A stretch of DNA of 64,000 bases, taken from Haliotis rufescens (lineage: Eukaryota). The translations under genes and the position numbers were made by a program. Numbering within the stretch: the first letter of the stretch is position 1; the number at the start of each line of letters is the position of its first letter. Below are positions 12,501-64,000 of the stretch, piece after piece. The DNA lies in NCBI RefSeq assembly GCF_023055435.1, contig NW_025963791.1, forward strand, positions 41,726,001-41,790,000, written 5' to 3'. A model generated the notes under the pieces. It was given only the letters and a program-made list of their open reading frames with translations, was not told the origin of the DNA and searched no databases.

Positions 12501-15500
12501 CTTTCAAAGGCCATTCTGACTGAAGATTTTCAAAAGTATGTTGACTTGTCGACAGAGGGCAGTAGGAGTTGTCTCCCTTTTCCCCGTTGCGAAGGCTCAG
12601 GAGAAACTGAAAGTATATTGTGTTGTTTATGATGCTGTCATTGGTCAAACACAAAACTGGACAGGACAGTGCATTCAAATATGATTATTATACATAAATA
12701 TTCCGCCTTCGGCCTTGAATGTCCCTCAAATGCCGAAACTACCATCTTACCTACTTAACGCATCTTTGATCATGATTTAAATTCTAGCTCGGACACCACA
12801 AGGGTTGACAGGTGACTTAATGGTCAAAGCTTTCGTTCGTCACGCTGGAGACCTGGATGGTGACACATGTTGCAGCCCATTCTCACGACAGGATGTCCAA
12901 GTCATTAAAGCAGTGTATACCCGATTCACTCGCCCACTACAGAACCCGTGAAGATCCGGGTTAGAATTGATCTTCAGCAACCCATGCTTGCCGTAAAAGG
13001 CGACTATGGTTGTCGTAAGAGGCGACTAACGGGATTGGTCAGACTCGCCGACTTTCTTGATGCATGTCATCGTATCCCAATTGCGTAGATTGATGCTCAG
13101 GATGTCAATCACTAGATTGTCAGGTCCAGACTCGACCATTTTCAGATCGCCGTCATATAGCTGGAATATTGCTGAGTGCGGCGTTAAACAACAAACAAAC
13201 AAACGAACAAACAAACAGTTCGTTCTGCCAACAGTGAGTGAGGGGATGGTATGCCAAGGCGGCCTGAGTGGAGTCTGGGCAGACAAACCAGTGGTTGACA
13301 GTGTGATCAACATTCCCCACAGGGTTGCCGTTTCACACAACCAGCAAGGTCACACATCGTAGCTGATGCCCGATCGCGACTAGACTCTACAACAAGCGTG
13401 CGATACAAGCAACACATTTCCCCTGAATCCCCACCGAAGTGATCTCGGGAAAATATAAAACTCTAATATGAATAAAGTGCAAGTGATTCCCTGGCATTTG
13501 ATTGGCTAACCAAGCAATAGATTTTGCGTTCATGGTTCGATTAACCGACCAATCATTACCCCTACTGACGGACTAGTATTTCCTGATTGGCTGACAGTGC
13601 AGTGGTCGGGGCTAATGTTGCATTATTGCGGAACGATGGCACCGATTTCGTACTGTTGTCTGCAGTTTTTATGTGTTAATAATTAGATAACCAGCCTGTG
13701 AAGTTAGTGTTGTTGACGTATTTATTTACAAGAACTGACTTCAACAGAACTAACCTGAGATTACCGTAATACCTTATAAAAGAGATTCACACCCAACTGG
13801 CGTCTGTATTCTGGGCTCGCCGAGAGCGGCTGCTGCTGTGAGGGGTGTAGTTCAGCGTGGAGGTACGTCAGGATGCCTGGACAGACACAGATAGTGGTGG
13901 ACGATATCGGTGTTTTATACACTTTGTAAGATTGCCCATTGATTAGCTTTAGAAGTAATCAATGTATTGAGTAAAACCTATTCACCTGTACGTTTTGTAA
14001 GTGTAATGTTCAGATAGGATGGTGTAGCGGGTAATACATTGCAACTAAACCGTGGCATTTGATTGGGTAACCAAGGAATCTGTTCGCATTTATGTTTTCA
14101 TGAACCGGAAAATACTTTGGGCACGTGACCCGTGAAGATTCGGGGTAGAATAGGTGTTCAGCAACCCATGCTTGCCATAAAAGGCGACTATGCTTGTCGT
14201 AAAAGGCGACTAACGGGATCGGGTGGTCAGGCTCGCTGACTTGGTTGATGCATGTCATCGATCCCAATTGCGTGGATCGATGATCACTGGATTATCTGGT
14301 CCAGACTCGATTATTTACAGACCGCCGTCAAATAGCTGGAATATTGGTGAGTGCGGCGTTAAACAACAAACCAACCAACTACGGGCACGTCATACAAACA
14401 TACCACAGGTTTTTTTCTGATTGACGAATTTGAGATGCAGTTGACGACACCCGAATGTAGGATTCAGTTAACAATACCCGAATGTAAAATGCAGTTAACG
14501 ACACCCAAATGTAAGATGAAGTTAACGATACCCGAATTTTAAATGCAGTTAACGATACATACAAACGAACTACAGGTGACATGTTGCTAGCACGGGTTTC
14601 TAGGTTTGTTAGCACCATATCCGTGCTCGTGTGTTTCATCGAAGTGTTAAACGTCTGAGACCTGCATCACTTCGGGCATTCCTCCCACATTAAGCTGACA
14701 CGCCGCGATATAACGGTGATACTGTTAATAGCGCCGTTTAACCCAACTCACTCACTCACTACAAAAACGACGTAACAGAAAGACATTTACCCACCACCTA
14801 CCTTTCAACAGCGGTGTGTCACACAAGCATCTACTCTCCTACCTTGCAGCAACGGGGTGATGGGCAGACAATTGCCCACCTACATTGCAACGAGGATGTG
14901 CCCAACAGACATTTACACATACCTTGCAACAACGACGTCACTGACAGACACACCCACCTTGCAACTACGACGTGACTGACAGACACACCCACCTTCAAAC
15001 AACGACGTGACTGACTGACACACCCACCTTGCAACAACGACGTGACTGACAGACACACCAATCTTGCAACAACGACGTGACTGACAGACACACCCACCTT
15101 GCAAAAACGACGTGACTGACAGACACACCCTACTTGCAACAACAACGTGACTGACAGACACACCTACCTTGCAACAACTACGTGACTGACAGACACACCC
15201 ACCTTGCAACAACGACGTGACTGACAGACACACCCACCTTGCAACAACGACGTGACTGACAGACACATCCACCTTGCAACAACGACGTGACTGGCAGACA
15301 CACCTACCTTGCAACAACGACGTGACTGACAGACACACCAATCTTGCAACAACGACGTGACTGACAGACACACCCACCTTGCAACAACGACGTGACTGAC
15401 AGACACACCCACCTTGCAACAACGACGTTATTGACAGACACACCCATCTTGCAACAACGACGTGACTGACAGACACACCCACCTTGCAACAACGGCGTGA

Positions 15501-18500
15501 CTGACAGACACACCCACCTTGCAACAACGGCGTGACTGGCAGACACACATACCTTGCAACAACGACGTGACTGACAGACACACCCATCTTGCAACAACGG
15601 CGTGACTGACAGACACACCCACCTTGCAACAACGGCGTGACTGGCAGACACACCCACCTTGCAACAACGACGTGACTGACAGACACACCCACCTTGCAAC
15701 AACGACGTGACTGACAGACACACCCACCTTGCAACAACGACGTGACTGGCAGACACACCTACCTTGCAACAACGACGTGACTGACAGACACACCAATCTT
15801 GCAACAACGACGTGACTGACAGACACACCCACCTTGCAACAACGACGTGACTGACAGACACACCCACCTTGCAACAACGACGTGACTGACAGACACACCC
15901 ACCTTGCAACAACGGCGTGACTGACAGACACACCCACCTTGCAACAACGACGTGACTGACAGACACACCCACCTTGCAATAACGACCTGTCCGTCAGACA
16001 TTTGCCCATCAACAGATCTTCAGTTTTACTGGCATGAATCTGCAGGAACAGAAGGTGTGTGTAAATCTACCTCAGTCATCAGTCACAGTATCTGCATAAT
16101 GTGTACATTTGTGAATTGGAAGCAACTGCAATTACTAGTACGAAGTTTTAATGAAATATGTTGTAACTTAAGTAATTTAGAAGGTTATATTATTTATTTA
16201 TACAAATTGTGGCTTTCCTATCATTCTGTACAAATTCAGCTGAATCAAGTACAGTATAGAATGGTATCAATTATCTCACCGTGTCTGGACTTATACCACC
16301 AAAGACCAAAGACGGCCGGCATACGACCTGGCTGTGCACGTCCAGGGTCAAACAGAATGCAGCATTCACATAGGCGTGGGCGTTCTGATACAAACAGTTC
16401 AAACAAGAGAATCAAGCAAGGTTTACGACAAGGCTTTGTCTCAAGCATTCTGTAAACTAGGGATGTAACAATTAATCGCATTTTTATTGTATCGCTATTT
16501 TCATGGCCCGATGGCAGGACATCGATGGCAAATTAACAAATCAACAGTGCAGATCGATATTAGACAGTGCAGATCGATATTAGACAGTGCGGAGGTGTCG
16601 CCTTTAACTGCCGAGCATCTGCTGAATTGGGGATTTTCGGGCGCTTCGGCTTTCTCATGTCAAATATTTTAAAGACAAGTTTATATTTGAAACGGTAGAG
16701 GTACTCATTAAACAGTTGCGGGACTTTTGCCATACTTGTACCTGCATTGTTATACTTGTATCATTACAATAGTTGTACCTACGTTGTAATACTTGCATCA
16801 TTACAATAGTTGTACCTACGTTGAAATAGCTGTACCAGCATTTCAATAGTTGTACCTACAATGCATTGCCACAATTGTACCTATATTGCAATATCAGTAC
16901 CTACGTTGTAATACTTGTATCCACATTACAATAGTAGAACCAACATTGTGATACTTGTATCCACATTACAATAGTCGCACCTACATTGCAATAGTAGTAC
17001 CAACAATGCAATACTTACATCCATATTACAATAGTCGCACCTACATTGCAATATCAGTACCTACGTTGTAATACTTGTATCCGTATTACAATAGTAGTAC
17101 CTACATTGTGTAATTTGTATCCACATTACAATAGTCGCACTTACATTGCAATAGTAGTACCAACATTGTAATACTTACATCCATATTACAATAGTTGTAC
17201 CTACATTGCAATAGCTGTACCTTTAGTGCAGAATATGTATCTATATCACAATATATGTACTTACATTGCAATAGACGTATCTACATTGTAATAGTGTCCC
17301 AAAAAACGTTTTTTAACTATCGCAACATTACTAATCCAGCTATACCGAAGAGAAGGGCACATTTATACCATATTCCTCATATTAATAACAGCTTATATCG
17401 AACTTTATTACCTCAATATATCTAAGACTATAAACTCAATACATCTAAGACTATAAACTCAATACATCTAAGACTATAAACTCAATACATCTAAGACTTT
17501 AAACTCAATACATCTTAGACTATAAACTAATTACATCTAAGACTATAAACTCAATACATCTAAGACTTTAAACTCAATACATCTAAGACTATAAACTCAA
17601 TACATCTAAAACTATAAACTCAATACATCTAAGACTATAAACTCAATACATCTAAGACTATAAACTCAATACATCTAAGACTATAAACTCAATACATCTA
17701 AGACTTTAAACTCAATACATCTAAGACTATAAACTCAATACATCTAAGACTATAAACTCAATACATATCAGACTATAAACTCAATACATCTAAGACTATA
17801 AACTCAATACATCTAAGACTATAAACTCAAGATATCGGACATAATTACTTTGATATTCCGAATTTTACACGCATGGTCCCCACCGAAACCTTCTCGGCAT
17901 TCCGCTTGTCTCAACGTAAGGATAACATGTATTCGATAATCGCCGGGACTTTGATATAACGTGTATGTTTGTACATGGGTACTGTACCTGGAGTCTGGGG
18001 GATACCTTGAAAGACTGGACACGGGCCCTGGGGTCCAGCTGGAACAACTCAAGGCGCGTGATGGTCTTTCCTGCCATCTCAAGTTGCAGGAAGTCTTTGA
18101 GGCTGTGGTCACCTTCAGCCCCAGGGCCGTGATCTGGGATACATCAACGAACGTTTACAGGCATACATGTTTCATTCAGCTTTACAGTTTTGCGTCCTTT
18201 AGCTAGTGCTTTGCCAGGATCTATTGTGAATTAGTGAGGAGAAATATAGCATTACCTCCAGGTCCATCATGGCAGGGCACCAGAGATTGGGATACTCGCA
18301 TTGTAACAATGTGAGGAACACGAATTGAACTTGGGTTTCCTATTAAGCTAAACAAATCACTTTTCGTTAGACACCGTAGTACTATTTCCATAAAATAAAT
18401 GGCAAGCTGTTTTAATGTCCATGTGGGAGGCTTCATCCCCACATCAACCAACCATAACATGAATGGGATGATTAATAAGTTATGCTCTGGAGTCCCTGAG

Positions 18501-21500: not shown

Positions 21501-24500
21501 TTGGTCTCGCATGTCTATTCCATGTACTAATCCTTGCAGGATTCCATTGCATTGAACGTATATTCAATAAGGTGGCGATGATGCAAAACAGGACGACACA
21601 GAAGGATGTAGAGTGAAACCTCTATAACTCGATAACACGAAACCATGGGGCACAAATGATCGGGCTATCCGAGGTTCGACATATACGGATCGCCGATATA
21701 ACATGATGATAAAAAGTTTTCAACGACACGTCGAGTTGCAGCGGTTTCATTGCACTAAGTAGACTTCTACAACAGGACGTGTGACAGTAAACTACCCAGG
21801 TACGACCACACGCTAATACCGCCGGTCATTAGATGCGGTTTCGTCTTCCCAGATCCTTGAACTCCATGGGCCTGAGCAACCAATGGTCAGACATGTTGCC
21901 TACCTGTCATGGCTGCCATGGTGCGGGAACGCTTAGGGGGAGATGGTGGCCCAGTGGTCTAAGACGCCGCAGGTCGACTAACATACGTTAGCAGAGCCAG
22001 AAACCGCTGAATGTGGCTGGTTCGAATCCCATTTTTACAGGAGACTTGGGTTCTCGGCGCTATATCCGATCTCGATGCTTTCACAACATGGTAAAGGTGC
22101 TTTGTTCTTCAGCATTACGTTGTGGTATAACAGAAATGACGTGGCGTTAACACCGACTCACTCACTTATGCGTTATGACAGTCTACACGGTTGTTAAGGC
22201 GATGACCTACCCGAGGCAGTGTTGCCGGCGAGCTGACGGACTGCGAGAGACGTGGAGGTGTTGGTCAGCACAAGGGTCAGCTGGCGGATGGACCTGGGTT
22301 TGTACCACTCAGTGTCGCCCCTGACTACATGGAACACGTCCAGGCCGTCACCCACGTTGCTGGTTTGTTTTGAACCGCCATTGCAGGAACCGTTGCTCAC
22401 ACATCCCAAACAGGACTTGCCCGTGCGGTCACAACGTGACTCCGAAAGATCCTTACACGGCGAAAGATGGGGAACAAATAAAGGTATTGAATGTTGAAAG
22501 TGTAGGCCGATTCTGAAACTGCATACTGGGTAGAAAGTAGGCTAAGACACTGAGTGATTGTAGTTTCAGACAATATATCTTTTCAGATAGCTATTGAAGA
22601 ACCATTGTATAGAATACTCTGTATGAACCACTTTATTATAAAGTTTATAAAGTCTAATACTGCTACTGTGTGATATATTCAATCATTTATCCCACAGATG
22701 CTTGGGAAAATCAAAGTATTCACTGATCCTATTGTAAAATAGGCGACAAAGCATATTTCAAACTTTCCAAGGTTGAACTATTTATGCTAACCTTCCATCT
22801 GAGGACTGTGAATATACAATGAAGTTATTTATCGCGAGAGGTATATCCGTGAGAGGGAAAGTGAGGGTGTTTGAACGTGGGACAGACTGTTAGCCTATTA
22901 TTAAAGCAGTTCGCAGCCAGATTTCTTCCACACACACAATGTCTCATGACGACGTTTAGTGTAAGCATTGGACACCTACCTCTATATCAAAACCCAGCCC
23001 GGCGCTAGCGGTCCCGGCAAAGGTCCTCATGGCGTCAAGGATTGGTCGGTATCCTGTGCATCGGCAAATGTTGCCGTCGAAATTGTCATCGATGTCCTGC
23101 TTTGTCAGTGCTGGTTTCTGATGCACTAACCTGGATGTTATGGACAAATAATATGATCATCAATAACATTCTATATCATAGCCAGAGATAATCAGGACTA
23201 AAACTGTTGTAACTGGATCTGAAGGGAATATTGAAATCACAAGGCCTTTCGGGGAAAAAGGGTTTGCAGCCAGACATACCCATACATGTGCATGACCATC
23301 CCCGGAGTACAGGAGCCACACTTACCCAAACATGTTCATGACCATCCCTGGAGTACAGTAGCCACACTTACCCATACATGTTCATGACCATCCCTGGAGT
23401 ACAGTATCCACACTTACCCATACATGTTCATGACCATCCCTGGAGTACAGTAGCCATACTTACCCATACATGTTCATGACCATCCCTGGAGTACAGTATC
23501 CACACTTACCCATACATGTTCATGACCATCCCTGGAGTACAGTAGCCACACTTACCCATACATGTTCATGACCATCCCTGGAGTACAGTATCCACACTTA
23601 CCCATACATGTTCATGACCATCCCTGGAGTACAGTAGCCATACTTACCCATACATGTTCATGACCATCCCTGGAGTACAGTATCCACACTTACCCAAACA
23701 TGTTCATGACCATCCCTGGAGTACAGGAGCAACACTTACCCAAACATGTTCATGACCATCCCTGGAGTACAGTAGCCACACTTACCCATACATGTTCATG
23801 ACCATCCCCGGAGTACAGGAGCCACACTTACCCAAACATGTTCATGACCATCCCTGGAGTACAGTAGCCACACTTACCCATACATGTTCATGACCATCCC
23901 TGGAGTACAGTATCCATACTTACCCATACATGTTCATGACCATCCCTGGAGTACAGTAGCGACACTTAACCATATATGTTCATGACCATCCCTGGAGTAC
24001 AGTAGCAACACTTACCCAAACATGTTCATGACCATCCCTGGAGTACAGTATCCACACTTACCCATACATGTTCATGACCATCCCTGGAGTACAGGAGCCA
24101 CACTTACCCATACATGTTCATGACAATCCCTGGAGTACAGGAACCACACTTAACCATACATGTTCATGACCATCCCTGGAGTACAGTAGCCACACTTACC
24201 AATAAATGTTCGGAGCCACACTTACCCATACATGTTCATGACCATCCCTGGAGTACAGTAGCCACACTTACCCATACATGTTCGGAGCCACACTTACCCA
24301 TACATGTTCATGACCATCCCTGGAGTACAGTAGCCACACTTACCAATAAATGTTCGGAGCCACACTTACCCACACATGTTCATGACCATCCCTGGAGTAC
24401 AGTAGCCACACTTACCCATACATGTTTGGAGCCACACTTACCCATACATGTTCATGACCATCCCTGGAGTACAGGAGCCACACTTACCCATACATGTTCA

Positions 24501-27500
24501 TGACCATCCCTGGAGTACAGGAGCCACACTTACCCATACATGTTCATGACCATCCCTGGAGTACAGTATCCACACTTACCCATACATGTTCATGACCATC
24601 CCTGGAGTACAGTAGCCATACTTACCCATACATGTTCATGACCATCCCTGGAGTACAGTATCCACACTTACCCAAACATGTTCATGACCATCCCTGGAGT
24701 ACAGGAGCAACACTTACCCAAACATGTTCATGACCATCCCTGGAGTACAGTAGCCACACTTACCCATACATGTTCATGACCATCCCCGGAGTACAGGAGC
24801 CACACTTACCCAAACATGTTCATGACCATCCCTGGAGTACAGTAGCCACACTTACCCATACATGTTCATGACCATCCCTGGAGTACAGTATCCACACTTA
24901 CCCATACATGTTCATGACCATCCCTGGAGTACAGTAGCGACACTTAACCATATATGTTCATGACCATCCCTGGAGTACAGTAGCAACACTTACCCAAACA
25001 TGTTCATGACCATCCCTGGAGTACAGTATCCACACTTACCCAAACATGTTCATGACCATCCCTGGAGTACAGTATCCACACTTACCCATACATGTTCATG
25101 ACAATCCCTGGAGTACAGGAGCCACACTTAACCATACATGTTCATGACCATCCCTTGAGTACAGTAGCCACACTTACCAATAAATGTTCGGAGCCACACT
25201 TACCCATACATGTTCATGACCATCCCTGGAGTACAGTAGCCACACTTACCCATACATGTTCGGAGCCACACTTACCCATACATGTTCATGACCATCCCTG
25301 GAGTACAGTAGCCACACTTACCAATAAATGTTCGGAGCCACACTTACCCACACATGTTCATGACCATCCCTGGAGTACAGTAGCCACACTTAAGCATACA
25401 TGTTCATGACCATCCCTGGAGTACAGGAGCCACACTTACCCATACATGTTCATGACCATCCCTGGAGTACAGGAGTCACACTTACCCATACATGTTCATG
25501 ACCATCCCTGGAGTACAGTAGCCACACTTAACCATACATGTTCATGACCATCCCTGGAGTACAGTATCCACACTTACCCTGCATGTTCATGACCATCCCT
25601 GGAGTACAGTAGCCACACTTAACCATACATGTTCATGACCATCCCTGGAGTACAGTAGCCACACTTACCCATACATGTTCGGGGCCACACTTACCCATAC
25701 ATGTTCATGACCATCCCTGGAGTACAGTAGCCACACTTACCAATAAATGTTCGAAGCCACACTTACCCACACATGTTCATGACCATCCCTGGAGTACAGT
25801 AGCCACACTTAACCATACATGTTCATGACCATCCCTGGAGTACAGTAGCAACACTTACCCATACATGTTCATGGCCATCCCTGGAGTACAGGAGCCACAC
25901 TTACCCATACATGTTCATGACCACCCCTGGAGTACAGGAGCCACACTTACCTATACATGTTCATGACCATCCCTGGAGTACAGGAGCCACACTTACACAT
26001 ACGTGTTCATGGCATTCCCTGGAGTACAAGAGCCACACTTACCTATACATGTTCATGACCACCCCTTGAGTACAGGAGGCACACTTACCCATACATGTTC
26101 ATGACCATCCCTGGAGTACAGTAGCCACACTTACCCATACATGTTTGGAGCCACACTTACCCATACATGTTCATGACCATCCCTGGAGTACAGGAGCCAC
26201 ACTTACCCATACATGTTCATGACCATCCCTGGAGTACAGTAGCCACACTTACCCATACATGTTTGGAGCCACACTTACCCATACATGTTCATGACCATCC
26301 CTGGAGTACAGGAGCCACACTTACCCATACATGTTCATGACCATCCCTGGAGTACAGGAGCCACACTTACCCATACATGTTCATGACCATCCCTGGAGTA
26401 CAGTAGCCACACTTACCCATACATGTTCATGACCATCCCTGGAGTACAGTAGCCACACTGAGTGCCGTTGAACTCTGCGATTCTCTTTTGTATTGGGTGG
26501 AATCCATCCCTGGAGTTCCCGAGTCCCTCGGTCGTGGTGATGCTCCAGCCGTCCACACTGTACAGGGGACACAGGCACTGGGGGTACATATTGATAATGC
26601 ATCAGTGACACACTGAGACAGCTTAGAAAGACATTGGGACAGCACAGCGACACATTGAGACAGCTCAGTGGGGCATTGGGACACCTCATTGGGACATTGG
26701 GACAGCACAGTGAGACATGGAGACATCTCAATGAGACATTGGGACAGCACAGCGAGACATTGGGACATCTCAGTGAGACATTGGGACAGCACAGCGAGAC
26801 ATTGAGACATCTCAGTGAGGCACTGAGACAGCTCGGTAGGGCATTAGGACACCTCATTGGGACAATGGGACAGCTCAGTGAGACATTTGGACAGCTCAGT
26901 GAGACATTTTGACAACTCAGTGGGACATTGGGACAACTCAGTGAGACATTGGGACAGCTCAGTGAGACATTTGGACAACTCAGTGGGACATTGGGACAAC
27001 TCAGTGAGACATTGGGACAGCTCAGTGAGACATTGGGATAACTCAGTGAGACATTGGGAGAACTCAGTGGGACATTGGGACAACTCAGTGGGACATTGGG
27101 GCAACTCAGTGGGACATTGAGACAGCTCAGTGGGACCTTGAGACAGCTCAATGAGACATTGAGACAGCTCAGTGAGACATTGAGACAGCTCAGTGAGACA
27201 TTGGGACAACTCAGTGAGACATTGGGACAACTCAGTGAGACATTGAGACAGCTAAGTAAGACATTGGGACAACACAGTGATACATTGAGACAACTTAGTG
27301 GGACATTGGGACAACTCAGTGGGACATTGGGACAACTCAGTGAGACATTAGGACAGCTCAGTGAGACATTGGGACAACTCAGTGGGACATTGGGACAACT
27401 TAGTGGGACATTGGGACAACTCAGTGGGACATTGGGACAACTCAGTGAGACATTAAGACAGCTTTGTGAGACATTGGGGCAGCTCAGTGAGACATTGGGA

Positions 27501-51900: not shown

Positions 51901-54900
51901 TTGCTGGCCATGGCATTCTATGGATGTTGTGCCTGGGGCGAACACTGGCGATTTGTGCACGGTGAGCAAGGGTGAAGTCATCCTGAAAGACAAAACGTCG
52001 AGCCACACAGGTCCTGAACGGGGTCGATCGTCAACATTTTGTTAAAGGTTGTGAAAGGTTGAACGGATTGGCCAGTGCACGCTGACTTCTGCGAGTTTCC
52101 AGCATATCAATAGCCCGTAGAAGCTCCGCAAACAATGAATCAAATCAAGCAAATCACAACTGTTTGTTAAGCAGAATCAGTAAGACTCATAGTAATAATA
52201 TTCCACATGGATTAATCGACCTTCCTTGAAAGTGTCAAAATTAGACATGACACCCTACGCACGTGTGTGGCGCTACTGCGTGAGACACGTGCAAACTACA
52301 GGATGTGTTAAGAGTTACAGACATCTTAAACATCCTTGCATAGGATGTTTGTCGTCGACACTTATCTTTATTTTGATAGTGGGTATTAACATTTATGGTT
52401 CACGATCCCTTACTTTTTATCCCCCCGGTTTGAAAACCCCCCGGAGAGATACAGCGATCAGCATGTCCGTCTGTCTGTCCGTCAGCCGTCCCTTTTCCGT
52501 TTCCGGAGCAGTGCTCCAAAACCGTTAAATATTTCTTGTTGAAACATGCTATATATATATCAGTCTAGTGATGATCTGGTGCCTTTCGATGATTTGGGAT
52601 TTGGAAAAATATTGAACAGTATTATTTATTTCTTCACTGAACTGAAGGCATAAAATGGCAATGAACCAAAAGTGGGGTATAAGTAGTCAAACTCCATTTC
52701 CGAATTGCACCAGACCGGGGGATATGTCATCTCCTGATGACTCCTGTTTTGAAGAGTATATATTCTGAGCAACTGCAGTTGTATAACACTGTATGTGCCT
52801 TACACACGTGCTATACAGGTGTGAACACAGGGCACGAAACGTAATAACGATATGCTGGATGGTAATTGGACACCCTGTAAATGATCAAGCCGTGAATTGG
52901 TGTGAGTGAGTGAGTTTAACGCCGCTTTTAACAGTGTTCCAGTTATATCACGGCGTGTCAGCTCAATGTGGGAGGAAAGCCTGAAGTGATGCAGGTCTCA
53001 GACGTTTACCACTTCGGTGAAACCCACGAGCACGGGTATGATGCTGACAAACCTAGAAGCATAATCGGGGTGTGTGGATTGTAGACATCGATATTGCCTG
53101 TCATCTATGACCGAGCTGTGCAGACTGCTCTGTAACTCTGTATCTGCCTCTGCAGGAGACGGTGGAAGACATCATCACAGAGGAGTTCTTCTTCCTAAAC
53201 ATCCCGGAGATAGACGGGGGCGTGGCTGCAGCCAGGGAGATGGCAGACATGGAGGAGTGTGTATATGATGGAATGACTTCATTTGGCCGTGACCCGTGAA
53301 GATCCGGGGTAGAATAGGTCTTCAGCAACCCATGCTTACCGCAAGAGGCGACTACACTTGTCGTAAGAGGCGACTAACGGGATCGGGTTGTCAGGCCCGC
53401 TGACTTGGTTGATGCATATCATCGTATCACAATTGCGTAGATCGATTCTCATGATATCAATCACTAGATTGTCTGGTCCAGACTCGAATATTTGCAGACC
53501 GCCGTCATATAGCTGGAATAGCGCTGAGTGCGGCGTTAAACAAGAAGCAAGCAACCAAACAAACAAACACACAGGCATCTTAAGTTATCTGACAAATTGT
53601 ATATTGGCCTTTTTCGGTCGTTATATCTTGATATTTCTTTCTAAATAAGTATGTCTATGTTTCAGGCATAAGGTTAAGCTACACTATCACAAACCTATTT
53701 TCACATTTTCACCAAACTTTAACACGTTTGATGAATGTAAGTATGTTTTGAAAGTATGTTTGTAAACATAATAAAATAAACATCGAAATCTTACTCTCTT
53801 AGTCTTTATCGAGTCGGGGGCACGGGTGGCCCAGTCGTCTAAGGCGCCGCGATTCGCTGTGCAGAGTTGCTTCCCTTGGGCACGCCAGAAATCTATGATT
53901 GTGGGTTCGAATCCCGGTTCGCCCCGATTATGTTTCTAGGTTTGTCAGCACCATACCCTTGCCCGTGGGTTTCACCGAAGTGGTAAACGTCTGTGACCTG
54001 CATCACTTCGGGCTTTCCTCCCACATTAAGCTGACACGCCGCGATATAACTGGAATACTGTTAAAAGCGGCGTTAAACCAAACTCACTCACTCACTCACT
54101 CACTCACTCACTTTATCGAGTCTTATTTCTGCATTTGACACATGGAAGCGCTCAATAGCATGCATGTTTGTTTCAGTGTGGATGTGTTCATTTGCACCAG
54201 TCCAATGACGTTCTATAAATATTGTCTACACGAGAAGGTAAGTCACTGGTGCAGTGTTTATCGTACTGAGATCAGACGTTTTTGTTCTTGTTTATAATGT
54301 AGAAAGCACTTGTGTCTCGCGTGTTTCAGTTGTATGATGTTATTAATGCGTATAGAACAGGCCATAAAAAATGCATGAGAAAACGTGTGAACAAATACGT
54401 CACTTTATTCATACCGGTTCACTAGTGCAAACATAACACAGTATTTCCTTGATCATAACAGTCAGACATTTTCGACTATTATGACTAATTAATTCCACAA
54501 TGTCTTGTTGTAGTATCAGTGGGCTGACCCCAGTAAACAGTTCCATGAGTAGTTGTAGTATCAGTAGGGCTGACCCCAGTAAACTGTTTCTTGTGTGGTT
54601 GTAGTATCAGTGGACTGACCCCAGTAAACTGTTTCTTGTGTGGTTGTAGTATCAGTGGGCTGACCCCAGTAAACTGTTTCTTGTGTGGTTGTAGTATCAG
54701 TGGGCTGACCCCAGTAAACTGTTCCTTGTATGGTTGTAGTATCAGTGGGCTGACCCCAGTAAACTGTTCCTTGTGTGGTTGTAGTATCAGTGGGCTGACC
54801 CCAGTAAACAGTTCCATGAGTAGTTGTAGTATCAGTGGGCTTACCCCAGTAAACAGTTCCTTGTGTGGTTGTAGTATCAGTGGGCTGACCCAGTAAACAG

Positions 54901-57874
54901 TTCAATGAGTAGTTGTAGTATCAGTGGGCTGACCCCAGTAAACAGTTCCTTGTGTTGTTGTAGTATCAGTGGGCTGACCCCAGTAAACAGTTCCATTAGT
55001 TGTTTTAGTATTAGTGGGCTGACCCCAGTAAACTGTTTCTTGTGTGGTCGTAGTATCAGTCGGCTGACCCCAGTAAACTGTTTCTTGTGTGGTTGTAGTA
55101 TCAGTGGGCTGACCCCAGTAAACAGTTCCATGAGTAGTTTTAGTATCAGTTGGCTGACCCCAGTAAACTGTTTTTTGTGTGGTTGTAGTATCAGTGGGCT
55201 GACCCCAGTAAACAGTTCCATTAGTAGTTTTAGTATCAGTGGGCATACCCCATTAAACAGTTCCATGTGTGGTTGTAGTATCAGTGGGCTGACCCCAGTA
55301 AACAGTTCCATGTGTGGCTGTAGTATTAGTAGGCTGACCCAGTAAACTGTTTCTTGTGTGGTTGTAGTATCAGTAGGCTGACCCAGTAAACTGTTTCTTG
55401 TGTGGTTGTAGTATCAGTAGGGCTGACCCCAGTAAACAGTTCCATGTGTGGCTGTAGTATCAGTAGGGCTGACCCAGTAAACTGTTTCTTGTGTGGTTGT
55501 AGTATCAGTAGGCTGACCCAGTAAACTGTTTCTTGTGTGGTTGTAGTATCAGTGGGCTGACCCCATTAAACAGTTCCATGTGTGGTTGTAGTATCAGTGG
55601 GCTGACCCCAGTAAACAGTTCCGTGTGTGGTTGTAGTATCAGTAGGCTGACCCAGTAAACTGTTTCTTGTGTGGTTGTAGGATCAGTAGGGCTGACCCCA
55701 GTAAACAGTTCCATGTGTGGTTGTAGTATCAGTGGGCTGACCCAGTAAACTGTTTCTTGTGTGGTTGTAGTATCAGTGGGCTGACCCCATTAAACAGTTC
55801 CATGTGTGGTTGTAGTATCAGTAGGCTGACCCCAGTAAACAGTTCCGTGTGTGGTTGTAGTATCAGTAGGCTGACCTCAGTAAACTGTTTCTTGTGTGGT
55901 TGTAGTATCAGTAGGGCTGACCCCAGTAAACAGTTCCGTGTGTGGTTGTAGTATCAGTAGGGCTGACCCAGTAAACTGTTTCTTGTGTGGTTGTAGTATC
56001 AGTGGGCTGACCCCATTAAACAGTTCCATGTGTGGTTGTAGTATCAGTGGGCTGACCCCAGTAAACAGTTCCGTGTGTGGTTGTAGTATCAGTAGGCTGA
56101 CCCCAGTAAACTGTTTCTTGTGTGGTTGTAGTATCAGTAGGGCTGACCCCAGTAAACAGTTCCGTGTGTGGTTGTAGTATCAGAGGGGCGGTCGGGTAGC
56201 CTAGTGGTTAAAGCGTTCGCTCGTCACGCCGAAGACCCGGGTTCGATTCCCGACATGGGCACAATGTGTGAAGCCCATTTCTGGTGTCCCCCGCCGTGAT
56301 ATTGCTGGAATAGTGCTAAAAGCGGCGTAAAACCATATTCACTCACTCACTGTAGTATCAGTAGGCTGACCCCAGTAAACTGTTTCTTGTGTGGTTGTAG
56401 TATCAGTAGGGCTGAGCCCAGGAAACAGTTCCATGTGTGGTTGTAGTATCAGTAGGGCTGACCCCAGTAAACAGTTCCATGTGTGGCTGTAGTATCAGTA
56501 GGGCTGACCCCAGTAAACAGTTCCTTGTGTGGTTGTAGTATCAGTCGGCTGACCCCAGTAAGCAGTTCCGTGTGTGGTTGTAGTATCAGTGGGCTGACCC
56601 AGTAAGCAGTTACGTGTGTGATTGTAGTATCAGTGGGTGGAGAAGCATCTCGGCGAGCAGTGGCTGGACAGAATCATCATCACCAAGGACAAGACGCTGG
56701 TTCACGGGCACGTGCTGGTGGACGACAGACTCAACATTACAGGTGGTGTTTCAGAGTCGATCTTGCCGTAGTTATGAACCATCTAATGTAAGTAGGGGTA
56801 GCCTAGTTGTTAAAGCGTTCGCTCGTCACGCCGAAGACCCAGTTTCGATTCCCAATGTGTAAAACCTATTTCTGGTGTCCCCGCCATGATACTGCTGGAA
56901 TATTGCTAAAAGCGGCGTACAACAATACTCACTCACTCACTCACTCTTATGCAAGTCACATTAGCGCTGACTTGTTGGTCACAAACATTGCCAGGCTGAC
57001 AACTGCTCATGTCCACTTGTACATGTTTATGAGATTGAATGGATGGAATGTTCATGAATGAAACACCCCAAATGATTGAACCTTTTATAGTTGGCACCGA
57101 AATATCCCCCAAAATTACCTTACATAATATACGTGGAGGCTTTAAAAGCTCAATCCGAAATTAAGTCCACGTTGTGTTACACTCTCGGTATAAAATATGG
57201 ATGCACACGACGTGTTGCGACCTTGACGTAGAGCGCCAGGTAAATCTCGGGAAAATGTTCAAGTAGCCTTACTTGGAGGCAAGACAAGATTAGTACACTT
57301 TCAATTGTATCGACTTTAATTAACTCCACAGTGTTTGATTGTTTGTTTGTTTGTTTGTTGTTTAACGCCGCACTCAGCAATATTCCAGCTATATGACGGC
57401 GGTCTGTAAATAATCGAGTCTGGACCAGACATCATGAGCATCGATCCACGCTATTGGGATACGACGACATGCATCAGCCAAGTCAGCGAACCTGACCACC
57501 CGATCCCGTTAGTCACCTGGGTTGCTGAAGACCTATTCTACGCCGGGTCTTCACGGGTCAACTCCACAATGTCATTCAAATAACTTCCCTATGAGTGATA
57601 AGATTACACTAAGCAATATGCCTTTGTTGTAAACTGTATTGAGAAGTTCATACATTTATCGGGAAGGAAACCGTTTAATGCAAAGACTCAACATAATATT
57701 AGTGAAAGCGTGCATTATCTTCCTCCAGGTGTATGTGAGCAGCCCACCTGGGAGCACATAGTCTTCACGGCGAACCACAACGCAAGGTTTGACGCGGGGG
57801 GCAAACGACGGCTGGACAACTGGACAGACGGACAGTGGAGGAGTCTCATTGAAGACTTTCAGAAGAGGATATGA
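48924..57874 (+). CDS. NT5M: 5'(3')-deoxyribonucleotidase (NT5M/NT5C-like HAD phosphatase), copy 1, 214 aa
   Basis: Exons 48924-49145, 53156-53256, 54177-54237, 56628-56742, 57729-57874. Motifs RVLLDMDQVLADFEG, FFLNIPEIDG, VFICTSP, EKYQWVEKHLG, TKDKT, LVDD, PTWEHIVF, HN, RRLDNW. Confidence 0.92.
49705..50726. mobile_element. Non-autonomous element with a terminal ~150-bp foldback and a 13-bp inverted repeat pair
   Basis: Palindrome 49711-49862; TTTATCATATAAT (49862-49874) and ATTATATGATAAA (50714-50726). Confidence 0.55.
52414..52750 (+). mobile_element. Helentron-associated non-autonomous element (HINE/DINE-1-like)
   Basis: T-run, subterminal IR TATCCCCCCGG ... CCGGGGGATA, (GTCY)n microsatellite, 3' hairpin GTCATC-TCCT-GATGAC, T-run. 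Confidence 0.7.
53291..53570 (+). mobile_element. SINE-like family C (~260 bp, non-tRNA head, (AAAC)n tail)
   Basis: CCCGTGAAGATCCGGGGTAGAATAGGTCTTCAGC...GTCGTAAGAGGCGACTAA...CGGCGTTAAAC(AAAC)n. Other copies ~12225-12450, 12944-13215, 14128-14378, 35060-35265, 45591-45818 (+); 36720-36983, 38150-38413, 38780-39243, 57340-57558 (-). Confidence 0.88.
54505..56637 (+). repeat. 45-bp minisatellite made of 3' acceptor + exon-4 start of NT5 copy 1
   Basis: Unit CTGACCCCAGTAAACTGTTTCTTGTGTGGTTGTAG|TATCAGTGGG; the real junction is TGTGTGATTGTAG|TATCAGTGGGTGGAG at 56627/56628. Confidence 0.97.
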
Positions 57875-63161: not shown

Positions 63162-64000
63162 TCCATGGCATTTACCGTAGAGCTCCATCTGTCCACGCCA
63201 TGGCATTTACCATAGAGCTCCATCTGTCCACGACATGGCATTTACCGTAGAGCTCCATCTGTCCACGCCATGGCATTTACCATAGAGCCCCATCTGTCCA
63301 CACCATTGCATTTACCATAGAGCTCCATCTGTCCACGCCATGGCATTTACCGTAGAGCTCCATCTGTCAACGCCATGGCATTTACCATAGGGCTCCATCT
63401 GTACACTCCATGGCATTCACCATAGAGCTCCATTCGGTCAACGCCATGGCATTAACCGTAGAGCTCCATCTGTCCACGCCATGGCATTTACCATAGGGCT
63501 CCATCTGTCCATGCCATGGCATTTACCATAGAGCTCCATCTGTCCACGCCATGGCATTTACCGTAGAGCTCCATCTGTCCACGCCATGGCATTCACTGTA
63601 GAGCTCAATCTGTCCACACCATGGCATTCACCTTAGAGCTCCATCTGTCCATGCCATGGCATTTACCGTAGAGCTCCATCTGTCCACGCCATGGCATTTA
63701 CCGTAGAGCTCCATCTGTCCCCACCATGGTATTCAGCATAGAGCTCAATCTGTCAACGCCATGGCATTTACCGTAGAGCTCCATCTGTCCCCAACATGGC
63801 ATTCACCATAGAGCTCCATCTGTCCACACCATGGCATTCACCGTAGAGCTCCATCTGTCCTCCCCCTGGCTTTCAGCGTAGAGCTCCATCTGTCCACACC
63901 ATGGCATTCAACGTAGATCTCCATCTGTCCACACCATGGCATTTACCGTAGAGCTCCATCAGTCCCCACCATGGCATTTACCATAGAGCTCCATCTGTCC
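63162..64000. repeat. 35-bp minisatellite (CCATGGCATTTACCGTAGAGCTCCATCTGTCCACG) in intron 3 of NT5 copy 2
   Basis: About 24 units, running off the window end. Confidence 0.96.

What the first reader, a model, noticed from the sequence alone, without database searches (positions are those of the whole stretch)
14830..16039. ~30 tandem donor sites after AOX exon 12, with an open frame allowing length-variable isoforms
Seen: the 35-bp unit matches the last 28 nt of exon 12 (5 mismatches) plus GTGGGTG, so most units contain CAAG|GT. The exon frame stays open through the array down to 15428. Using every third donor (+105 nt) would insert an in-frame Cys-rich 35-aa block ([35 protein letters not shown]). 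The distal degenerate units (~14830-14915) keep exon-like GGGCAATTGTC, supporting an exon origin. Each AG|GT could also serve as acceptor plus donor (recursive splicing or intron gain).
Basis: partly seen in the sequence, partly recalled or inferred. Interest (0 to 1): 0.7.

Follow-up and report, generated by a model that had tools for sequence, protein, structure and literature searches.

The report
Splice-donor minisatellite in aldehyde oxidase intron
The end of one exon of an abalone aldehyde oxidase gene, splice signal included, is repeated 30 times into the next intron, but the assembled transcripts examined all splice at the first, true signal, so this is likely a tolerated repeat of a kind already known from human and lancelet genes, not a source of longer proteins.

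Summary
Observation confirmed; isoform idea not supported. Exon 12 (16039-15973, minus strand) of an abalone aldehyde oxidase/xanthine dehydrogenase-family gene is followed by 30 units of 35 bp matching its last 28 nt at 23 positions; 24 of 30 downstream junctions keep AG|GT. Four older 39-43-nt units follow. The unit occurs only here in the genome. Of 7 RNA-like runs laid, 6 (four studies) gave a contig across the exon 12/13 junction, all at the first donor, although five downstream donors score higher; rare forms are not excluded. The open frame is no sign of selection: 20% of shuffled units are stop-free and another frame stays open longer. An insert would land inside a predicted helix. A paralog has this intron at the same position without an array, so no intron gain. 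The units keep outgroup codons at 2 of 3 amino-acid-changing differences, a fossil of the older exon. This is a junction-spanning minisatellite like human F7 intron 7 and lancelet 'mirages'; the scan noted the same kind on eight other pieces of this genome.

The parts
15973..16039 (-). Exon 12 of the aldehyde oxidase/XDH-family gene (67 nt, residues 464-485 of P0001); its last 28-36 nt are the source of the repeat
   Evidence: spliced contigs
15967..15975 (-). Authentic 5' splice site AAG|GTGGGT, the only donor seen in RNA contigs; also the start of unit 1
14923..15972 (-). Homogeneous minisatellite, 30 x 35 bp (35 differences from consensus in 1050 nt); 24 of the 30 junctions downstream of the real donor (the last at 14922) keep AG|GT
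   Evidence: unit found only here in the genome
15428..15430 (-). First stop (TAA) in the exon reading frame, in unit 16
14759..14922 (-). Four degenerate, longer units (39-43 nt) that match further into the exon (GGGCAAA-like part); likely the older form of the repeat
13773..13876 (-). Exon 13, joined directly to the true end of exon 12 in RNA contigs
16280..16384 (-). Exon 11, spliced to exon 12 (joint 16039/16280)

Best explanation
This is an intronic minisatellite that repeats the end of exon 12 together with its splice donor; the transcripts examined splice at the first donor, and the array is likely a neutral product of local tandem duplication whose spare donors stay silent. Inferred history: a 41-43-nt piece across the exon/intron junction (about 36 nt of exon plus the first intron bases) was duplicated in place in an ancestor of several abalone species; an internal deletion gave a 35-nt unit, which was amplified and homogenised by slippage or unequal exchange while four old units at the far edge decayed. 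The exon later changed two residues that the array did not follow. Inferred splicing mechanism: the most upstream donor wins by position (exon definition across the 67-nt exon, or first-come choice as shown for human F7), not by strength or by RNA structure; use of the next one or two donors would shift the frame and the product would probably be removed by nonsense-mediated decay.
For: Shown: 23 of 28 match, P about 1e-9; unit confined to this array, 26 of 26 pattern matches, control 0; distal units align further into the exon. RNA: X1, X3, X4 join exon 13 to the true exon 12 end, X2, X6, X8 join exon 12 to exon 13 at the first donor within single contigs of 3.4-3.8 kb. Five downstream donors outscore the real one on a matrix from the gene's other 32 donors (11.1 and 11.3 against 9.9 bits) and are still not seen. 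Predicted accessibility does not favour the real donor (0.004, against 0.0001-0.035 for the others). Outgroup proteins read S-D-T (H. asinina) and S-D-A (H. rubra) where this exon reads T-D-R and the unit reads S-V-T. DNA-like run X15 of another organism code (19 differences in 500 nt) also runs from exon 12 into the array. 2 of 18 arrays in this gene span a junction, 0.7-1.2 expected from random seeding, P 0.15-0.33. Precedent: F7 intron 7 (PMC1557585), mirages (PMC3087553).
Against: All RNA evidence is assembled contigs, which drop rare variants; the tool marks these runs as RNA by guess (they skip intron 11, so they are spliced). X5 gave nothing on exon 13. X2 holds one 65-nt array-only contig at depth 3.8 against 33.9 for the spliced form: about 1% per copy if it is pre-mRNA or DNA, but up to roughly a tenth if all of it came from a short-insert isoform. 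In human 6-16 and CBS the nearest spare donors are used (Introduction of PMC1557585), so some leak is plausible. Tissues and conditions of the runs are unknown. The array has persisted across species, which neutrality allows but does not predict.
Confidence: 0.87

Rival explanations
1. The array is silent for protein but leaks: the second and third donors are used at a few percent, give frameshifted messages that are degraded, and so array length or sequence tunes enzyme level slightly, as reported for human CBS and 6-16.
For: Units 2-5 carry donors identical to the real one; use of the next two truncates the protein at 499 and 516 residues; array-only contig in X2; precedent cited in PMC1557585.
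Against: No fork at the donor in 6 of 6 contigs; array depth per copy about 1% of the spliced form in X2, and no array contig laid in X6 or X8.
Confidence: 0.08
2. One reading: every third donor is used and inserts 35, 70, 105 or 140 Cys-rich residues, giving length-variable enzyme isoforms.
For: Four in-frame AG|GT donors precede the first stop, two of them stronger than the real donor; such messages would encode 1330-1435 residues without a stop.
Against: Not seen in 6 of 6 junction contigs or in 5 RefSeq isoforms; 19.7% of 20,000 shuffled units are stop-free in all frames, and another frame is open further, to 15306; the junction lies inside predicted helix 349-362 of model m9d91fbf00929 (residues 353/354, block pLDDT 90) with no insertion at that point in any of 28 aligned homologs.
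Confidence: 0.03
3. The AG|GT units act as recursive splice sites or are an intron in the making.
For: Each intact junction is AG|GT; pyrimidine fraction upstream of the unit AG is 0.67, the same as the median of the gene's 33 real acceptors; mirages were proposed as a route to intron gain (PMC3087553).
Against: The paralog has the same 67-nt exon and phase-1 intron with no array, so the array did not create this intron; the -3 base is A, found in 2 of 33 real acceptors; the intron is only 2.1 kb, whereas recursive splicing is a feature of very long introns (recalled); no micro-exon in any contig.
Confidence: 0.02

Closest known systems
Human F7 intron 7 37-bp VNTR (Borensztajn et al. 2006, PMC1557585; abstract, outline and 12 passages seen)
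   Same: First unit spans the exon/intron boundary; donor reiterated downstream with the same intronic hexamer GTGGGT; only the most upstream site used, even against stronger downstream sites.
   Different: 30 units against 5-9; unit is mostly exon-derived (28 of 35 nt) against 4 of 37; a mollusc; no minigene test here; polymorphism not measured.
Human 6-16 (25 pseudo-sites), CBS intron 13 (15-20 units), lamin B2 and PDGF minisatellites (known to me only from the Introduction of PMC1557585; the 6-16 paper itself was not held)
   Same: Long arrays of reiterated donors; lamin B2 and PDGF use only the authentic site.
   Different: 6-16 and CBS also use two nearby pseudo-sites; no such use was seen here, at contig sensitivity.
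Lancelet 'mirage' repeats in Adh3, globins BflGb6/BflGb9, troponin C, PGBD5 (PMC3087553 and PMC3902484; passages seen)
   Same: Invertebrate tandem repeats across exon/intron boundaries, at donors or acceptors, several per gene, not disturbing splicing, homogenised inside with divergent edge units.
   Different: Different phylum; length and somatic instability are reported for mirages and were not testable here; here the array preserves older exon codons.

Membership tests
Junction-spanning minisatellites (F7 IVS7 type, lancelet mirages) | Head-to-tail minisatellite whose first unit spans an exon/intron boundary | tested here: met
   TRF array starts 28 nt inside exon 12; 23 of 28 match
Junction-spanning minisatellites (F7 IVS7 type, lancelet mirages) | Splice signal reiterated in many but not all units | tested here: met
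   24 of 30 downstream junctions AG|GT
Junction-spanning minisatellites (F7 IVS7 type, lancelet mirages) | Normal mRNA made from the authentic site | tested here: met
   6 of 7 RNA-like runs gave a junction contig, all at the first donor; rare forms not excluded
Junction-spanning minisatellites (F7 IVS7 type, lancelet mirages) | Homogenised interior with divergent edge units | tested here: met
   35 differences in 30 units; four distal units degenerate and longer
Junction-spanning minisatellites (F7 IVS7 type, lancelet mirages) | Length polymorphism between alleles (and somatic instability in lancelet Adh3) | not testable with these tools
   one assembly; contigs of run X15 collapse the array
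Junction-spanning minisatellites (F7 IVS7 type, lancelet mirages) | Spare donors work when the first is inactivated (shown for F7) | not testable with these tools
   needs a minigene
Coding VNTR giving length-variable isoforms | Repeat units present in spliced mRNA or protein | tested here: not met
Coding VNTR giving length-variable isoforms | Reading frame kept open beyond chance | tested here: not met
   unit length 35 is not a multiple of 3; 19.7% of shuffles stop-free; a non-exon frame is open longer
Intron gain by tandem duplication of AG|GT | Intron position new, absent from relatives | tested here: not met
   paralog has the same intron position and phase, no array
Recursive splice sites | Splicing intermediates joining the exon to an intronic AG|GT | not testable with these tools
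   contigs of mature RNA cannot show intermediates; acceptor context of the unit is not disqualifying

The most novel reading that the evidence does not exclude
Some tissues or stresses use the stronger in-frame donors in units 7 and 13 (or leak to the nearest ones), so that array length and donor variants set the amount or length of an abalone aldehyde oxidase, making these common abalone junction repeats heritable splicing dials rather than silent passengers.
Probability: 0.05. Interest if true: 0.55.

Novelty: new member of a known kind. Interest (0 to 1): 0.14.

Why it matters
Modest. It extends the position-over-strength rule for donor choice, shown in mammalian cells for F7, to a natural case in a mollusc where five stronger donors downstream are not seen in transcripts. 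The array also works as a small fossil: it keeps exon codons that the gene has since changed, which dates it before those changes and argues against ongoing exchange with the exon at these sites. Practically, such arrays can mislead gene models (two RefSeq isoforms of this gene start inside the similar exon 4 array). It would matter more only if downstream donors proved to be used in a regulated way.

Tried and rejected
Selection for an open frame: rejected. Intron gain: rejected. RNA structure hiding the spare donors: the array folds well (z -4.6 against plain shuffles), but against tandem arrays of shuffled units the excess is modest (10 of 300 as stable) and the real donor is no more open than the others. 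Enrichment of junction arrays in this gene over random seeding: not shown (2 of 18, P 0.15-0.33). Myosin-family loci as an outside sample: 2 of 30 loci held an array and 1 of 30 overlapped the exon match, but most loci are overlapping paralogs of one cluster, so it is no genome-wide rate. Literature: 'Haliotis + minisatellite + intron' gave 3 papers (passages of PMC6905558 seen, an intronic 27-bp repeat not described as junction-spanning); the abalone-genome search gave 140 papers, of which the 20 listed do not contain the term 'abalone genome'; 'VNTR + splice donor + UPF3A' gave 0. I found no paper on junction-spanning minisatellites in abalone; subscription journals and supplements were not seen.

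Full report
Setting. The window is G000:C13:41726001-41790000. A minus-strand gene matches P0001, named 'indole-3-acetaldehyde oxidase-like isoform X1 [Haliotis rufescens]', exon by exon. The whole protein was traced as 34 coding exons with GT..AG introns over 66.8 kb, running past the window's left edge. Its best solved relative is 7px0, 'Aldehyde oxidase 1' (E 1e-252), followed by xanthine dehydrogenases. Exon 12 is 16039-15973 and intron 12 is 2,096 nt.

Thirty 35-bp units follow the donor without a gap (15972-14923), with 35 differences from consensus in total. The unit's last 28 nt match the exon's last 28 nt at 23 positions; the best match anywhere else in the window is 19 of 28 and the binomial chance is about 1e-9, or 1e-7 without the shared CAAG. 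Of the 30 junctions downstream of the real donor, 24 keep AG|GT: 18 identical to the real one, 3 GTAGGT, 2 GTATGT, 1 GTGGAT. A 29-nt unit pattern with one mismatch allowed has 26 matches in the 1.33-Gb genome, all in this array, and 0 for the reversed control. The repeat was therefore made in place.

Origin and age. Four degenerate units of 39-43 nt lie beyond unit 30 (14922-14759). They begin with a donor-like hexamer and align further into the exon than the 35-mer does, so the first duplicated piece was probably 41-43 nt and the 35-mer arose from it by deletion (inference). Read in the exon frame, three of the five exon/unit mismatches change the amino acid. The exon has T-D-R, as does H. 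cracherodii; H. asinina has S-D-T and H. rubra S-D-A; the unit has S-V-T. At two of the three sites the unit holds the outgroup state, at one the exon does. The array thus predates two substitutions in the exon and has not been homogenised with it at those sites (inference from protein sequences only; outgroup DNA not seen). A DNA-like run of another organism code (X15; 19 differences in 500 nt) has a contig running from intron 11 through exon 12 and 22 nt into the array, with short array contigs piling up to depths of 470-1160 against 35 on the flank: many units are present there too, though this is no copy number.

Is it spliced? I laid 7 RNA-like runs and 1 DNA-like run of the 24 listed, on stretches beside the array. 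On exon 13, X1, X3 and X4 each gave one contig whose upstream loose end is the true exon 12 end, not a unit end; X5 gave nothing. On exons 11-12, X2, X6 and X8 each gave a single contig of 3.4-3.8 kb that skips intron 11 and leaves exon 12 at the first donor straight into exon 13. That is 6 of 7 runs, from four studies and three organism codes, with no other junction. Against this: X2 holds a 65-nt array-only contig at depth 3.8 beside 33.9 for the spliced contig. Its words occur 10.7 times on average in the array, which gives about 1% per copy, as unspliced RNA or DNA would; if all of it came from a short-insert isoform it could reach roughly a tenth, but such an isoform should fork the main contig, which is not seen. 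Contigs drop rare forms, so a leak of a few percent stays open. None of the 5 RefSeq isoform proteins or 3 other abalone proteins has an insert at this point.

The open frame is not evidence of function. The frame is open to TAA at 15430, leaving four in-frame AG|GT donors, and modelled messages would give 1330, 1365 or 1435 residues, while the next two donors truncate at 499 and 516. But a 35-nt unit cycles through all frames, so one stop-free unit opens all of them; 19.7% of 20,000 shuffled units are stop-free, and the first stops of the three frames fall at 15761, 15430 and 15306, so the exon frame is not the longest. The junction falls at residues 353/354 of the model of isoform X5, inside helix 349-362 (block pLDDT 90), in the region between the FAD-binding and molybdopterin parts, and none of 28 aligned homologs has an insertion at that point. 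A 35-residue insert there would likely damage the fold (inference).

How the first donor wins. On a matrix from the gene's other 32 donors the real site scores 9.9 bits and five downstream sites 11.1 or 11.3, so strength does not explain the choice. Predicted accessibility does not either: the real donor (0.004) lies within the range of the others (0.0001-0.035), and the unit's self-pairing is only modestly above arrays of shuffled units (10 of 300). Position remains. In human F7, a 37-bp minisatellite reiterates a GTGGGT donor, only the most upstream site is used, the spare sites work once it is mutated, and stronger downstream sites do not compete (PMC1557585, abstract and passages). I infer the same rule here; it was not tested in abalone.

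Intron gain and recursive splicing. A paralog about 60 kb downstream, roughly 45-60% identical in this part, has the same 67-nt exon and phase-1 intron with no array, so the intron is older than the array. The unit's AG has a normal pyrimidine tract (0.67, equal to the median of 33 real acceptors) but an uncommon A at -3 (2 of 33); intermediates cannot be seen in these data.

How common. Arrays make up 24.6 of the gene's 66.8 kb; 2 of 18 span a junction (introns 4 and 12), against 0.7-1.2 expected if duplications start at random places (P 0.15-0.33). A third junction array, at an acceptor, lies in a neighbouring gene of the window. Earlier notes of this scan list eight like cases on other pieces of this genome, one of which reports a similar random-placement result on 728 introns (unchecked AI notes, not counted as support).

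Known relatives. Human F7, 6-16, CBS, lamin B2 and PDGF carry such donor-reiterating minisatellites, and lancelet 'mirages' in Adh3, globins, troponin C and PGBD5 are the invertebrate counterpart, described as not disturbing splicing and as homogenised inside with divergent edges (PMC3087553, PMC3902484, passages). The tested defining features are met; polymorphism and function of the spare donors were not testable. My searches found no description in abalone. Verdict: a real, well-formed new member of a known kind, most likely silent; interest low.

Noticed in passing
window 23268-26459 (minus strand, intron 4 of the same gene): A second donor-spanning array: 46-bp unit copying the last ~40 nt of exon 4 plus its donor, about 3.2 kb, filling the intron. 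RefSeq isoforms X4 and X5 begin inside it and splice to exon 5; read mis-mapping is my guess, real use of a spare donor is not excluded.
   Followed up: partly
L007 3554-4767 against window 23268-26577: The downstream paralog's exon 4 is 99.4% identical in DNA to this gene's exon 4 and carries the same 46-bp array; exon 3 is 93% identical, while exons 5, 6 and 12 give no blastn match. This looks like a recent gene-conversion tract that includes the array.
   Followed up: partly
window 54507-56637 (plus strand): 45-bp array that repeats the acceptor and first ~10 nt of the next exon (reads like a 5'-nucleotidase exon, label recalled) about 47 times, interrupted by one interspersed element near 56190-56350.
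   Followed up: partly
L014 4165-4479: 77-bp x 4 array over the donor end of a late exon of the paralog.
   Followed up: no
L037 1130-1545: 83-bp x 5 array overlapping the 3' end of a myosin-head exon match.
   Followed up: no
L003 1-3173 and L004 8754-9996 (intron 26 of the gene): A 41-bp array of about 107 copies fills the 4.5-kb intron to within 20 and 36 nt of the splice sites but shows no likeness to either exon end.
   Followed up: partly
window 63163-64000 and L008 1-1271 (minus-strand reading): 35-bp array whose reverse strand reads like a donor in each unit, but the nearby exons seen are on the plus strand and no matching exon was identified.
   Followed up: partly
window 15982: All runs that cover it (X1-X4, X6, X8, X15) read the other base at this silent exon position; the window's base is the one shared with the repeat unit's codon. 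An allele, an old state or a small conversion from the array.
   Followed up: no
L002 4859-5145 (intron 21): A 51-bp period array 3.7 kb from the upstream exon scored above all 300 shuffles for a short local match to that exon's end (score 19; one of 40 such tests); may be chance.
   Followed up: no
window and flanks, 244 kb: Minisatellite arrays cover about 21% of the region (44 arrays).
   Followed up: no
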